Source: Escherichia coli (lineage in GTDB: Bacteria > Pseudomonadota > Gammaproteobacteria > Enterobacterales > Enterobacteriaceae). From it: 64,000 bases of DNA. Shown here one piece after another: positions 13,221-16,200 of this stretch (its first letter is position 1; the number at the start of each line of letters is the position of its first letter). Position numbers: made by a program. The stretch is from NCBI RefSeq assembly GCF_003018115.1, contig NZ_CP027457.1. One strand, written 5' to 3'.

Positions 13221-16200
13221 TAATGATGTGCCACATCCGGCATGGTATGCCGGATGTGGCGTATGCTGATAAGACGCGCCAGCGTCGCATCAGGCAACCG
13301 GCTCGGGCGTTGGATGTCGGATGCGGCGTAACCGCCTTATCCGACCTACGGGGTGGAGCACTTCACAGCGGTGTAGGCCTGATAAGACGCGTCAGCGTCG
13401 CATCAGGCAACCGGCTCGGACGTTGGATGTCGGATGCGGCGTAACCGCCTTATCCGACCTACGGGGTGGAGCACTTCACAGCGGTGTAGGCCTGATAAGA
13501 CGCGCCAGCGTCGCATCAGGCAACCGGCTCGGGCGTTAGATGTTGGATGCGGCGTAACCGCCTTATCCAACCTATGGGGTGCCGCACTTCACGGCAGTTT
13601 AGCGAACTTCCGCGTTGTTAATTTTCTCTTCTGCCTTCCAGACGCGGTATTTCACATCTACATTGTCTGGCGTATACACCACGATCGGCAGCTTGCTGTT
13701 GTAACGCAGCATTCCAGCATCGCCCAGATACGCGGTGACAAATTTCTTCTCTTTCTTGCCATCCGGGCAGGCCATCATCGTGGAAACCGGCGAGCTAACT
13801 TTATCAAAGACATAATAATCATAGCCCCAGCCTTCCAGCGTTTTGCTTTCCAGCTTCCCGCCGAGACGATGCAAATTGCAATCGACTTCCAGCGTCTGAC
13901 CGATTAACAGTTCTACTTTCAGGGTAGATTCATCTTCTTGCGGGGTTAACTGAATCACCTGACGCTTCATGCCTTTTTCAGCTTGTGGATAAGGCGCGAT
14001 TTTTTCCAGTGGCTGGACGCTCTCTGCCGCCCAGGCGGAAGTGGTGGCAAAAGCGGCAAACAATACTGCAGGTAGAATGGTCTTCATTTTTTGCTTTCCT
14101 TCTTCATTTATAGGTTTGCACCGATGATGTCGCTGAAGGTTAACATATTCATCAGATTTATTAATTTGCTTTATGAATAACTTAAAGAATATTCAGACAA
14201 TTTTACCTTCTCTTTTAGTGTTAAATTCTGATGAGAGAGCAAACCAGCAGAAATATCTCTGGTGAATTAATCGCTATATAAATATATTTATAACCATTTG
14301 AAATGTGAGCAAAAGCCCGTTTTTGCCACGCTTCCCGCCACTCTTTTGATCCTGCTACAGGTTTTACCTCGATCGGGGTATGCATCTTTGACACATCCTT
14401 TAATATCTTAGCGGCTATAAAAATGGCTTATTAATTATGCGGTTTATTTGGTCGCTCTCAATTTTCAGAGCGCGTTAATGATGGAAGGTCAATGTGAAGA
14501 TTGATGCATCCCGTCGGGGCATACTCACTGGTCGCTGGCGCAAAGCCAGTAACGGTATCCGTCCGCCCTGGTCCGGTGATGAATCTCATTTTCTGACCCA
14601 TTGCACCCGCTGCGACGCCTGTATTAATGCTTGTGAAAACAACATTCTGCAACGCGGCGCGGGCGGCTATCCGAGCGTTAATTTCAAAAATAACGAGTGC
14701 AGCTTCTGTTACGCCTGCGCGCAGGCTTGCCCCGAATCGCTATTTTCTCCGCGCCACACCAGGGCCTGGGATTTGCAGTTCACCATTGGGGACGCGTGCC
14801 TGGCGTATCAGTCAGTTGAATGCCGCCGCTGTCAGGATAGCTGTGAGCCAATGGCAATTATCTTTCGCCCGACGCTCTCCGGGATCTACCAGCCGCAACT
14901 TAATAGCCAACTTTGCAACGGATGTGGAGCATGTGCAGCCAGCTGTCCGGTATCAGCCATAACTGCGGAGTATCTCCATGCACACTAACTGGCAAGTTTG
15001 CAGCCTGGTCGTGCAGGCCAAAAGCGAACGAATTTCAGACATCAGCACCCAACTGAACGCCTTTCCCGGCTGTGAAGTTGCTGTCAGCGACGCGCCGAGC
15101 GGTCAGTTGATTGTGGTGGTGGAAGCAGAAGACAGCGAAACGCTGATCCAAACCATTGAGTCAGTACGCAACGTAGAGGGCGTGCTGGCGGTGTCGCTGG
15201 TTTATCACCAGCAGGAAGAGCAAGGTGAGGAAACACCATGAAACTCAGTCGTCGTAGCTTTATGAAAGCTAACGCCGTTGCGGCCGCTGCGGCGGCTGCC
15301 GGTCTCAGCGTGCCGGGCGTTGCCCGCGCCGTTGTTGGTCAGCAGGAAGCCATTAAATGGGACAAAGCGCCGTGCCGTTTCTGCGGTACTGGTTGCGGCG
15401 TTCTGGTCGGAACGCAGCAGGGGCGTGTGGTGGCCTGTCAGGGCGACCCGGACGCACCGGTTAACCGTGGCCTGAACTGCATTAAGGGCTATTTCCTGCC
15501 CAAGATCATGTACGGTAAAGACCGTTTGACGCAGCCGCTGCTGCGTATGAAAAACGGTAAATATGACAAAGAAGGCGAATTTACCCCAATCACCTGGGAT
15601 CAAGCCTTTGATGTGATGGAAGAGAAATTCAAAACCGCCCTGAAAGAAAAAGGGCCGGAATCGATCGGTATGTTCGGTTCTGGTCAGTGGACTATCTGGG
15701 AAGGTTATGCCGCGTCCAAGCTGTTTAAAGCGGGCTTCCGTTCGAACAACATCGACCCGAACGCGCGTCACTGTATGGCGTCGGCAGTAGTTGGCTTTAT
15801 GCGTACCTTTGGTATGGATGAGCCGATGGGCTGCTATGACGACATCGAGCAGGCTGACGCGTTTGTGCTGTGGGGCGCAAACATGGCGGAGATGCACCCG
15901 ATCCTCTGGTCACGCATCACTAACCGTCGTCTCTCTAACCAGGACGTCACCGTGGCGGTGCTTTCAACCTACCAGCATCGTAGCTTCGAGCTGGCGGATA
16001 ACGGCATCATCTTTACGCCGCAATCTGACCTGGTGATCCTGAACTACATCGCCAACTATATCATTCAAAACAATGCGATAAATCAGGACTTCTTTAGCAA
16101 ACACGTTAACCTGCGCAAAGGGGCGACGGACATCGGCTACGGTTTACGTCCGACCCATCCGCTGGAAAAAGCAGCGAAGAATCCGGGTTCTGACGCCTCC

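What the first reader, a model, noticed from the sequence alone, without database searches (positions are those of the whole stretch)
13226..13600. Three tandem ~113 bp REP/BIME units that masquerade as three overlapping ORFs
The mqo-eco intergenic region holds three near-identical palindromic units; the ORF track reports three mutually similar 'proteins' there, which are artefacts of the repeat. Such arrays are recombination and mRNA-stability elements; copy number often varies between strains.
Basis: seen in the sequence. Interest (0 to 1): 0.2.

Follow-up and report, generated by a model that had tools for sequence, protein, structure and literature searches.

The report
Known BIME-2 repeat array between mqo and eco
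The spacer between the E. coli genes mqo and eco holds three tandem 113-bp copies of a well-known palindromic repeat (a BIME-2 array, called REP161 in K-12) whose copy number differs between strains, so the finding is real but ordinary.

Summary
Confirmed, and already known. Window 13266-13598 holds 2.9 head-to-tail copies of a 113-bp unit (98% and 90% identity). Each unit is a Z2-type REP palindrome, a 20-nt linker, an inverted Y-type REP palindrome and a 23-nt linker. That is the BIME-2 architecture.

The array fills the convergent mqo(+)/eco(-) spacer of an E. coli chromosome that is 100% identical to strain F9792. A separate single-copy 18-bp-stem hairpin (13226-13264) lies between the mqo stop codon and the array.

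The three similar plus-strand ORFs are repeat artefacts. 113 is not a multiple of 3, they have no Pfam match, and no CDS is annotated there in any of the nine RefSeq E. coli genomes inspected.

Copy number varies from 1 to 7 units in the strains sampled. K-12 has 6, O157:H7 has 1, and about 63% of 5,426 genomes lack the internal junction, which implies a single unit. One strain carries IS621 inserted at its canonical REP target inside the array.

Published K-12 data list this locus as a gyrase-cleaved BIME-2 (6 cuts; 11 ciprofloxacin sites). They also list the mqo-proximal hairpin as a mapped bidirectional 3' end, so the array would lie in the eco 3'UTR. Each unit passes Rfam's naRNA4 threshold on the eco-sense strand, but that model in effect describes a Y/Z2 unit. 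Interest is low.

The parts
11577..13223 (+). mqo (malate:quinone oxidoreductase) CDS; stop codon TAA at 13221-13223
   Evidence: ORF list; RefSeq annotation of the identical strain F9792 and of K-12
13226..13264 (.). Head hairpin, not part of the repeat. Perfect 14-bp palindrome core at 13230-13260. The stem is 18 bp on mqo-sense RNA (-29.2 kcal/mol) and 14 bp on eco-sense RNA (-27.8 kcal/mol). It starts 2 nt after the mqo stop and has no U-tract
   Evidence: Inverted repeat I5; folds. Single copy per genome and always at the mqo end, in 4093 genomes. The K-12 equivalent (2305063-2305108) is listed as bidirectional terminator #365, eco:mqo, REP161. No intrinsic-terminator pattern found
13266..13378 (.). 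BIME-2 unit 1 (113 bp, Tandem Repeats Finder phase)
13379..13491 (.). BIME-2 unit 2 (113 bp, 98% identical to unit 1)
13492..13598 (.). BIME-2 unit 3 (107 bp, about 90% identical). Its last linker runs straight into the eco stop codon
13264..13295 (-). Z2-type REP of unit 1. The tail is degenerate (CATA instead of CCTAC, one base missing)
   Evidence: blastn-short against the Z2 consensus, 100% over 30 nt; fold -15.3 to -15.8 kcal/mol
13373..13408 (-). Z2-type REP of unit 2. Contains the exact IS621 target ATCAGGCCTAC at 13373-13383
   Evidence: 97% over 36 nt; 11-mer search
13486..13521 (-). Z2-type REP of unit 3. Contains the exact IS621 target ATCAGGCCTAC at 13486-13496
   Evidence: 100% over 36 nt
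13316..13349 (+). Y-type REP of unit 1
   Evidence: 90.6% over 32 nt to the Y consensus; fold about -19 to -20 kcal/mol
13429..13462 (+). Y-type REP of unit 2
13542..13575 (+). Y-type REP of unit 3. Its stem carries a compensated C-G to T-A change, and the tail reads CCTAT
13409..13428 (.). Head-to-head linker, 20 nt (AACCGGCTCGGACGTTGGAT). Equivalent linkers lie at 13296-13315 and 13522-13541
   Evidence: It differs from the 13-nt linker of the other Y/Z2 locus in the window
13463..13485 (.). Tail-to-tail linker, 23 nt (GGGGTGGAGCACTTCACAGCGGT). An equivalent linker lies at 13350-13372, and the terminal variant with a small 5-6 bp hairpin at 13576-13598
   Evidence: The 43-mer spanning this junction occurs only as often as expected for this one locus (K-12 has 4 places)
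13264..13572 (-). Three Rfam RF02564 (naRNA4) matches on the eco-sense strand: 13264-13346 (63.8 bits), 13376-13459 (75.3 bits) and 13489-13572 (75.3 bits). The gathering score is 59.5
13223..13907 (+). Three overlapping artefact ORFs (13223-13444, 13321-13539, 13434-13907) created by reading the repeat
13599..14087 (-). eco (ecotin) CDS; stop codon is the complement of 13599-13601

Best explanation
This is the strain's allele of the E. coli BIME-2 array that K-12 annotation calls REP161. It is three tandem 113-bp units of [Z2 REP, inverted] - 20 nt - [Y REP] - 23 nt, lying between the convergent genes mqo and eco. It is non-coding.

Shown here: the array is one member of the dispersed REP family. 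Its linkers are specific to this locus, so it grew by local tandem amplification and contraction of one unit. Different lineages now carry 1 to 7 or more units.

Inferred mechanism of copy change: either unequal recombination or replication slippage between 113-bp direct repeats, or cleavage and strand transfer by the REP-associated tyrosine transposase TnpA_REP. I cannot tell these apart.

Shown in K-12 by others and inferred for this strain:
(i) At the DNA level, the Y/Z2 pairs are strong DNA-gyrase sites that do not depend on transcription, with about one cut per unit. They sit exactly where positive supercoils from two converging transcription units meet.
(ii) At the RNA level, the eco transcript reads through the whole array and ends at the mqo-proximal hairpin, and mqo RNA ends just past that same hairpin. 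The array is therefore a variable-length, hairpin-rich eco 3'UTR. The hairpins act as leaky terminators or pause sites and as blocks to 3'-to-5' exonucleases.
(iii) The Z2 tails are landing pads for IS621.
For: Anatomy: Tandem Repeats Finder and the repeat finder. Z2 matches its consensus at 100% over 36 nt and Y at about 91%, in alternating orientation. Every REP folds at -15 to -21 kcal/mol on both strands.

Locus-specific unit: the internal junction 43-mer occurs in 1987 of 5426 genomes at 1-11 places, and K-12 has exactly the 4 expected from this locus alone. The other Y/Z2 locus in the window has different linkers.

Copy number: sequence-verified at 1 (O157:H7, UTI89), 3 (window, Escherichia sp. 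E1V33), 6 (K-12) and 7 (G47-1, BL12). Spans from a flank-only query give 36 x 1, 4 x 3, 2 x 4, 3 x 5, 12 x 6 and 2 x 7 units in an even sample of 59 genomes. Among the 60 closest flanks, 47 have 3 units, 3 have 4 and 10 have 1.

Not an assembly artefact: five independent O169:H41/F9792-type assemblies and 25 or more O145 assemblies share the 3-unit span.

Gyrase: Sutormin 2019 Table DS3 lists 'BIMEs2 ... The main text says gyrase prefers Y REPs and that the signal rises with rifampicin.

RNA ends: Table 16 of bioRxiv 10.64898/2026.03.23.713779, row 365, gives K-12 2305063-2305108, eco:mqo, REP161, convergent. The same preprint shows that the comparable 12-hairpin REP325 acts as a partly Rho-dependent terminator and an mRNA stabiliser.

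BIME-2 definition, strain-variable copy number and in vitro TnpA_REP recombination: Ton-Hoang 2012.

IS621: an insertion at CTTATCAGGC[CT]/[CT]ACACC in strain 2017-02-2CC matches the published target ATCAGGCCTAC with its CT core.
Against: No experiment was done on this strain. Gyrase cleavage and the RNA 3' ends are K-12 data for a 6-unit allele.

The mapped 3' ends could come from exonuclease trimming rather than termination, since the hairpin has no U-tract.

In the held (truncated) supplement text of the 2026 preprint, REP161 appears only in Table 16, so apparently not in its Rho-binding table. That preprint also reports no genome-wide difference in half-life for REP-associated mRNAs.

Evidence of selection for structure is thin. 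Only one stem pair shows a compensatory change (C-G 13, T-A 2, C.A 6 distinct units), and most pairs never vary.

Nothing here shows that copy number has any phenotypic effect.
Confidence: 0.88

Rival explanations
1. The units are genes for naRNA4-like nucleoid-associated non-coding RNAs. These would bind the protein HU and bridge DNA cruciforms to condense the chromosome.
For: All three units exceed the Rfam RF02564 gathering score on the eco-sense strand (75.3, 75.3 and 63.8 bits against 59.5). K-12 data suggest that this strand is transcribed through the array. Qian 2015 proposed that sequences homologous to REP325 could share its role.
Against: The Rfam model is in effect a profile of a Y/Z2 BIME-2 unit, so a hit shows repeat-family membership and not function. 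A second Y/Z2 locus in the window also scores above threshold. The head-to-head linker here is 7 nt longer than in the model. A 2026 preprint reports that REP325 and naRNA4 do not measurably compact the nucleoid and that HU binds naRNA4 only moderately. No promoter-like site lies in the spacer.
Confidence: 0.07
2. The array is selfish or neutral DNA. It would be amplified by TnpA_REP or by slippage and tolerated in a convergent spacer, with gyrase cleavage and RNA effects as by-products of no selective value.
For: Copy number ranges from 1 to 7 with no obvious optimum, and about 63% of genomes keep a single unit. Indel-scarred alleles exist: a 21-nt deletion, a 121-nt unit and a 10-nt shorter B2 allele. 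There is almost no covariation. Ton-Hoang 2012 shows TnpA_REP-driven BIME recombination in vitro.
Against: At least one unit is kept in every genome inspected, including Escherichia sp. E1V33. The flank query matched 5421 of 5426 genomes, and every span listed (119 rows) implies at least one unit. Copy number is stable within lineages, for example in all O145 genomes listed. Gyrase cleavage at this locus is among the strongest of the K-12 BIME-2 entries seen in the table excerpts. This rival overlaps the best explanation and does not exclude it.
Confidence: 0.3
3. The three ORFs (73, 72 and 157 aa) encode real, paralogous small proteins.
For: They are open, start with ATG and resemble one another.
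Against: The similarity is simply the DNA repeat read in the same relative frame. The period of 113 is not divisible by 3, so each ORF lies in a different absolute frame and runs into the next unit. There is no Pfam match; the best is E = 0.15 and below the cut-off. No CDS is annotated in this spacer in the nine RefSeq E. coli genomes inspected. One-unit alleles abolish two of the three ORFs. The third ORF runs antisense through eco.
Confidence: 0.01
4. The repeat count is an assembly artefact, with repeats collapsed or expanded.
For: Tandem repeats of 113 bp can be mis-assembled from short reads.
Against: The window is identical to the complete genome of F9792. The same 1975-bp span is seen in four other closely related complete genomes and in 25 or more O145 genomes assembled independently.
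Confidence: 0.01

Closest known systems
BIME-2 (bacterial interspersed mosaic element type 2), specifically the K-12 eco-mqo BIME-2 = REP161
   Same: Same locus and same flanking genes. Same Z2/Y alternation, same 113-bp unit with the same linkers, and the same head hairpin. The K-12 units are near-identical.
   Different: Three units here against six in K-12. A few point differences, including G.U wobble pairs that weaken the head hairpin on the eco-sense strand.
REP325 / naRNA1-6 (yjdM-yjdN BIME-2 of K-12; Rfam RF02564)
   Same: A tandem array of Y + Z2 hairpin pairs in a 3'UTR. The units score above the Rfam gathering threshold. [quoted passage not shown]
   Different: Different linkers (the head-to-head linker here is 7 nt longer) and a different spacer. 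It lies between convergent genes rather than inside an operon. No HU-binding or nucleoid data exist for this locus.
BIME-1 / RIP / RIB elements (Y + Z1 with a long L linker that binds IHF)
   Same: Built from REP palindromes in inverse orientation at the 3' ends of genes.
   Different: This array uses Z2 and not Z1, is tandemly amplified, and has no IHF core motif WATCAANNNNTTR. A Y+Z1 pair does occur elsewhere in the window at 26693-26790.
REPINs / REPtrons (REP doublets mobilised by RAYT / TnpA_REP)
   Same: Each head-to-head Z2-Y pair is a REP doublet with the conserved GTAG/CTAC tails that TnpA_REP recognises.
   Different: No tnpA_REP gene adjoins the array; none of the genes annotated around it (yojI, mqo, eco, yojO, napF-napC) is one. 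The amplification is local and tandem, not dispersed.
Bidirectional (overlapping) terminators between convergent genes
   Same: The head hairpin is listed as one for eco:mqo in K-12.
   Different: It has no A- or U-tracts on either side (2 A and 2 U in the 8-nt flanks). It is therefore not a canonical intrinsic terminator and may instead be a processing stop.

Membership tests
BIME-2 | Composed of Y-type and Z2-type REP palindromes | tested here: met
   blastn-short against the Y, Z1 and Z2 consensus sequences gives Z2 at 100%/97%/100% and Y at about 91% for the three units. The consensus sequences were recalled from memory, but exact matches elsewhere in the window validate them.
BIME-2 | REP and inverted REP alternate (head-to-head, tail-to-tail), separated by short linkers | tested here: met
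   Z2 lies on the - strand and Y on the + strand in every unit. The head-to-head linker is 20 nt and the tail-to-tail linker 23 nt.
BIME-2 | Linkers belong to the named motif classes S (head-to-head) and s/l/r (tail-to-tail) | not testable with these tools
   The motif consensus sequences of Gilson/Bachellier were not available to me. Ton-Hoang 2012 states that BIME-2 linkers vary in length and sequence between loci.
BIME-2 | Occurs as tandem copies whose number varies between strains at a given locus | tested here: met
   2.9 copies here. Other E. coli strains have 1 to 7 units at the same locus.
BIME-2 | Extragenic, at the 3' ends of transcription units | tested here: met
   It fills the convergent mqo/eco spacer.
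BIME-2 | Cleaved by DNA gyrase in vivo | not testable with these tools
   Published for the K-12 allele only: 6 cuts (Espeli & Boccard 1997, as cited) and 11/7/2/5 Topo-seq sites.
BIME-1 (RIP/RIB) | Z1 REP plus a long L linker with an IHF site; single copy | tested here: not met
   No Z1 match, no IHF core motif in 13224-13598, and the element is tandemly repeated.
Rfam RF02564 naRNA4 | Covariance-model score at or above the gathering threshold (59.5 bits) | tested here: met
   75.3, 75.3 and 63.8 bits on the - strand. The + strand scores 43.8, 39.7 and 31.6, all below threshold.
Rfam RF02564 naRNA4 | Expressed as a discrete RNA that binds HU and condenses the nucleoid | not testable with these tools
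   No data exist for this locus, and the function itself is disputed.
Intrinsic (Rho-independent) terminator | GC-rich hairpin followed by a U-tract | tested here: not met
   No terminator-like site in the spacer. The head hairpin is followed by GUAUGCUGAUAAG.
Protein-coding gene | ORF with family support, annotation, or conservation of frame | tested here: not met
   No Pfam family. No CDS is annotated in the spacer in the nine RefSeq E. coli genomes inspected. The frame is not preserved across units or across alleles.

The most novel reading that the evidence does not exclude
Unit number at this locus (1, 3, 4, 5, 6, 7 and possibly up to about 12) may act as a heritable, lineage-specific dial. 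Copy number would set the length and hairpin load of the eco 3'UTR and the number of strong gyrase sites where mqo and eco transcription collide. Through those it would tune ecotin or Mqo expression, or local supercoiling. The absence of 2-unit alleles from 119 listed genomes and the peaks at 1, 3 and 6 would then reflect selection rather than sampling of clonal lineages.
Probability: 0.12. Interest if true: 0.35.

Novelty: already known. Interest (0 to 1): 0.1.

Why it matters
It matters little beyond good annotation. It shows that three ORF calls should be suppressed, and that an Rfam 'naRNA4' label here means 'BIME-2 unit' and not a demonstrated sRNA gene.

The locus is a clean natural variable-number tandem repeat: 113-bp steps, 1 to 7 or more copies, stable within lineages and different between them. 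It could serve as a typing marker. It could also serve as a natural allelic series for testing how REP dosage affects gyrase recruitment and 3'UTR-mediated mRNA fate between convergent genes. It also carries two intact natural IS621 (bridge-recombinase) target sites.

Tried and rejected
- A fuzzy-regex REP census timed out. I replaced it with blastn-short.
- One paper look-up failed because a search term was too short.
It returned only Escherichia sp. E1V33. It missed even the E. coli representative, probably because phylogroup B2 strains carry a diverged terminal linker. It therefore says nothing about absence in other species.
- A Pfam scan of the four ORFs found nothing significant.
- The promoter/terminator scan found nothing in the spacer.
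- The IHF core motif is absent from the array.
- The RRS 'replication risk sequence' (222-bp repeats near dusC and lysO) was considered because of its similar size and map region. It is a different locus.
- A CRISPR-like array was rejected because the 'spacers' are identical linkers.
- I could not find Liang, Rudd & Deutscher 2015 in the library. That paper reports REPs within 15 nt of a stop codon causing ribosome stalling. The idea that the head hairpin, 2 nt after the mqo stop, lowers mqo translation rests on my own recollection and is untested.
- I ran no further search on the artefact ORFs.
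Full report
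**What is in the sequence**

The window is E. coli. A 1-kb piece around the finding is 100% identical to the chromosome of strain F9792. RefSeq annotation there and in K-12 names the flanking genes as mqo (window 11577-13223, +) and eco (13599-14087, -). The two genes converge on a 375-bp spacer.

Tandem Repeats Finder reports one array at 13266-13592: period 113, 2.9 copies, 95% matches, no indels, score 598. The repeat finder puts the copies at 13266-13378, 13379-13491 (98%) and 13492-13604 (90%).

**Anatomy of the unit**

Each 113-bp unit breaks down as follows:
- 30 nt of a Z2-type REP in inverted orientation. The 6-nt GTAGGC tail contributed by the previous unit completes the 36-nt palindromic unit.
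- A 20-nt head-to-head linker (AACCGGCTCGGGCGTTGGAT).
- A 34-nt Y-type REP in direct orientation, ending in CCTAC.
- A 23-nt tail-to-tail linker (GGGGTGGAGCACTTCACAGCGGT).

The Z2 copies match the Z2 consensus at 100%, 97% and 100%, and the Y copies match theirs at about 91%. I recalled those consensus sequences from memory. Exact matches elsewhere in the window (26693-26726 for Y and 26762-26790 for Z1) show the recollection is sound. Every REP folds at -15 to -21 kcal/mol on either strand. The whole spacer folds much better than shuffles, with z = -6.8 and -7.9.

The third unit ends in a variant linker (GGGGTGCCGCACTTCACGGCAGT) that has a small hairpin and abuts the eco stop codon.

**A separate hairpin at the mqo end**

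Positions 13226-13264 are not part of the repeat. They form a near-perfect palindrome with a 14-bp perfect core at 13230-13260. The stem is 18 bp on mqo-sense RNA when G.U pairs are counted (-29.2 kcal/mol) and 14 bp on eco-sense RNA. It begins 2 nt after the mqo stop codon.

Its 48-mer occurs exactly once per genome, always at the end of mqo, in 4093 genomes. It is therefore a locus-specific hairpin and not a dispersed REP. No U-tract follows it, and the terminator scan finds nothing in the spacer.

**The ORFs**

The three + strand ORFs exist (13223-13444, 13321-13539, 13434-13907), and their products are similar because they read the same repeat. Several facts show they are artefacts:
- 113 is not a multiple of three, so they lie in three different frames.
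- The last one continues antisense through eco.
- None has a Pfam family.
- RefSeq annotates no CDS in this spacer in any of the nine E. coli genomes I opened.
- One-unit alleles remove two of the three ORFs.

**Variation between strains**

I queried the 5,426 complete E. coli genomes with 800 nt of each flank joined together. The hit span gives the spacer length.

| Sample | 1 unit | 3 units | 4 units | 5 units | 6 units | 7 units |
|---|---|---|---|---|---|---|
| Even sample, 59 joined hits | 36 | 4 | 2 | 3 | 12 | 2 |
| 60 closest flanks | 10 | 47 | 3 | 0 | 0 | 0 |

One further genome in the even sample was split by an insertion.

I confirmed counts by reading sequences:
- K-12 MG1655 has 6 units in a 714-bp spacer.
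- O157:H7 and UTI89 have 1 unit in 149 bp.
- G47-1 and BL12 have 7 units.
- One allele has a 21-nt deletion and another a 121-nt unit.

In the closest-flank sample, two of the 47 three-unit spans are 7 nt short, all O145 genomes listed have 3 units, and O157:H7 has 1. The number is thus stable within lineages but differs between lineages whose flanks are over 99% identical.

The 43-mer across the internal tail-to-tail junction is present in 1987 of 5426 genomes, at 1-11 places per genome. K-12 has 4 places, exactly what this one locus predicts. Two conclusions follow. The linker is specific to this locus. About 63% of genomes lack the junction, which implies a single unit and agrees with the 61% seen in the even sample. 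Eleven junctions would imply about 12 units, but I did not verify such a genome.

Escherichia sp. E1V33, a separate GTDB species, has three units at the same place.

The other Y/Z2 locus in the window (1310-1488) has quite different linkers. This again indicates local amplification of one unit rather than repeated insertion.

Structural covariation is minimal. Across 21 distinct units, only one Y-stem pair shows a compensated change (C-G 13, T-A 2, uncompensated C.A 6).

**What is already known about this locus**

- Ton-Hoang et al. 2012 define BIME-2 as Z2 + Y REPs in inverse orientation with short linkers, occurring as tandem copies that are well conserved within a locus and variable in number between strains. 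They also show TnpA_REP cleavage at CC|T sites and BIME recombination in vitro.
- Sutormin et al. 2019, Table DS3, lists this very locus in K-12 as 'BIMEs2, 654 bp, eco>-<mqo'. Their text adds that gyrase prefers Y REPs and that the signal increases when transcription is blocked.
- A 2026 preprint (10.64898/2026.03.23.713779) reproduces a table of mapped bidirectional terminators. Row 365 (K-12 2305063-2305108, eco:mqo, REP161, convergent) is exactly the head hairpin. In window coordinates this puts the mqo-sense 3' end near 13268 and the eco-sense 3' end near 13223. As listed, then, eco RNA crosses the entire array, and the array is an eco 3'UTR.
- The same preprint finds that the comparable 12-hairpin array REP325 acts as a partly Rho-dependent terminator and an mRNA stabiliser, and does not measurably compact the nucleoid.

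**The Rfam hits**

Each unit scores above the gathering threshold of RF02564 (naRNA4) on the eco-sense strand, at 75.3, 75.3 and 63.8 bits against 59.5. The model was built from REP325 units and is in effect a Y-linker-Z2 profile. A second Y/Z2 locus at 1313-1389 also passes the threshold. I read these hits as repeat-family membership and not as evidence for an HU-binding sRNA. The head-to-head linker here is 7 nt longer than in the model, and the proposed nucleoid function is now disputed.

**Mechanism: what is shown and what is inferred**

Shown here:
- BIME-2 architecture.
- A locus-specific unit.
- Tandem copy-number polymorphism.
- Non-coding status.
- IS621 insertion into the array in one strain.

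Shown by others for the K-12 allele:
- Gyrase cleavage, about one cut per unit.
- RNA 3' ends at the head hairpin.

Inferred for this strain:
- The three units provide about three strong gyrase sites where positive supercoils from converging mqo and eco transcription meet.
- They form a 375-nt hairpin-rich eco 3'UTR that impedes RNA polymerase and 3' exonucleases.
- Unit number changes either by unequal recombination or slippage between 113-bp repeats, or by TnpA_REP.

Untested idea, resting on my recollection of Liang, Rudd & Deutscher 2015: a stable hairpin 2 nt after the mqo stop could hinder termination of mqo translation.

**Verdict**

The element is BIME-2 (REP161). Each unit contains two palindromes. 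There is a separate terminator-like hairpin. The best-documented property is gyrase cleavage. The array lies in the eco 3'UTR. It is an already known element, and interest is low.

Noticed in passing
L007 (NZ_AP027764.1, strain 2017-02-2CC) 4233-6000; IS621 transposase CDS at 4717-5697: An IS621 (IS110-family, bridge-RNA-guided recombinase) is inserted inside this same BIME array, between units 3 and 4. On the eco-sense strand the junctions read CTTATCAGGC[CT]...[CT]ACACC. That is the published natural target ATCAGGCCTAC with its CT core.
   Followed up: yes
window 13373-13383 (-), 13486-13496 (-), 26762-26772 (-): Three exact copies of the IS621 target 11-mer ATCAGGCCTAC, where 0.02 are expected by chance. 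Two of them lie in the Z2 tails of the array.
   Followed up: yes
window 1310-1488: A second Y/Z2 (BIME-2-like) locus with two REP pairs and different linkers (13-nt head-to-head linker). Rfam naRNA4 scores 70.4 bits at 1313-1389 (+).
   Followed up: partly
window 26693-26790: A Y REP (100% match) plus an inverted Z1 REP (100% match) about 35 nt apart. This is a BIME-1-like pair. No WATCAANNNNTTR motif was found between them.
   Followed up: partly
window 44715-44742: A single Y-type REP (96% over 28 nt).
   Followed up: no
window 5146-5239 (-), 41347-41420 (-), 45136-45161 (-): Rfam gathering-level hits to MicF sRNA (116.8 bits), a tRNA and the L25 ribosomal-protein leader.
   Followed up: no
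L005 (strain BL12), unit 6 of the array: One unit is 121 nt instead of 113. Its tail-to-tail linker contains CACGGCAGTTTAGCG, a copy of the sequence that normally abuts the eco stop codon. At least one duplication event therefore copied the eco-proximal end into the array.
   Followed up: partly
L006 (strain Res13-Lact-PEB21-38-A), start of the spacer: A 21-nt deletion fuses the 3' arm of the head hairpin to the middle of the first Z2 REP. Several strains (L004-L006) also carry a GG insertion in the 3' arm of the hairpin.
   Followed up: partly
window 13599-13604 compared with the unit ends: The repeat similarity runs 6 nt into eco. TTTAGCG (the complement of the eco stop and last codon) aligns with TGTAGGC, the Z2 tail of internal units. 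The eco stop codon may therefore sit on a decayed REP tail, or this may be coincidence.
   Followed up: no
(119 listed genomes): No 2-unit allele was seen, although 1, 3, 4, 5, 6 and 7 units all occur. One search shows that some genomes have only one internal junction, so 2-unit alleles may exist. The sample is phylogenetically clumped.
   Followed up: no
L004 (1630-2139) and L009 (950-1459): eco is annotated as 510 nt (170 aa) in G47-1 and UTI89 but as 489 nt (162 aa) elsewhere. This is presumably an alternative start-codon call.
   Followed up: no
window 13163-13186: A 12-nt tandem duplication (GCCGAAACCGCA / GCTGAAACCGCA) inside the mqo 3' end encodes the PKPQ-LKPQ repeat of the C-terminal tail.
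   Followed up: no
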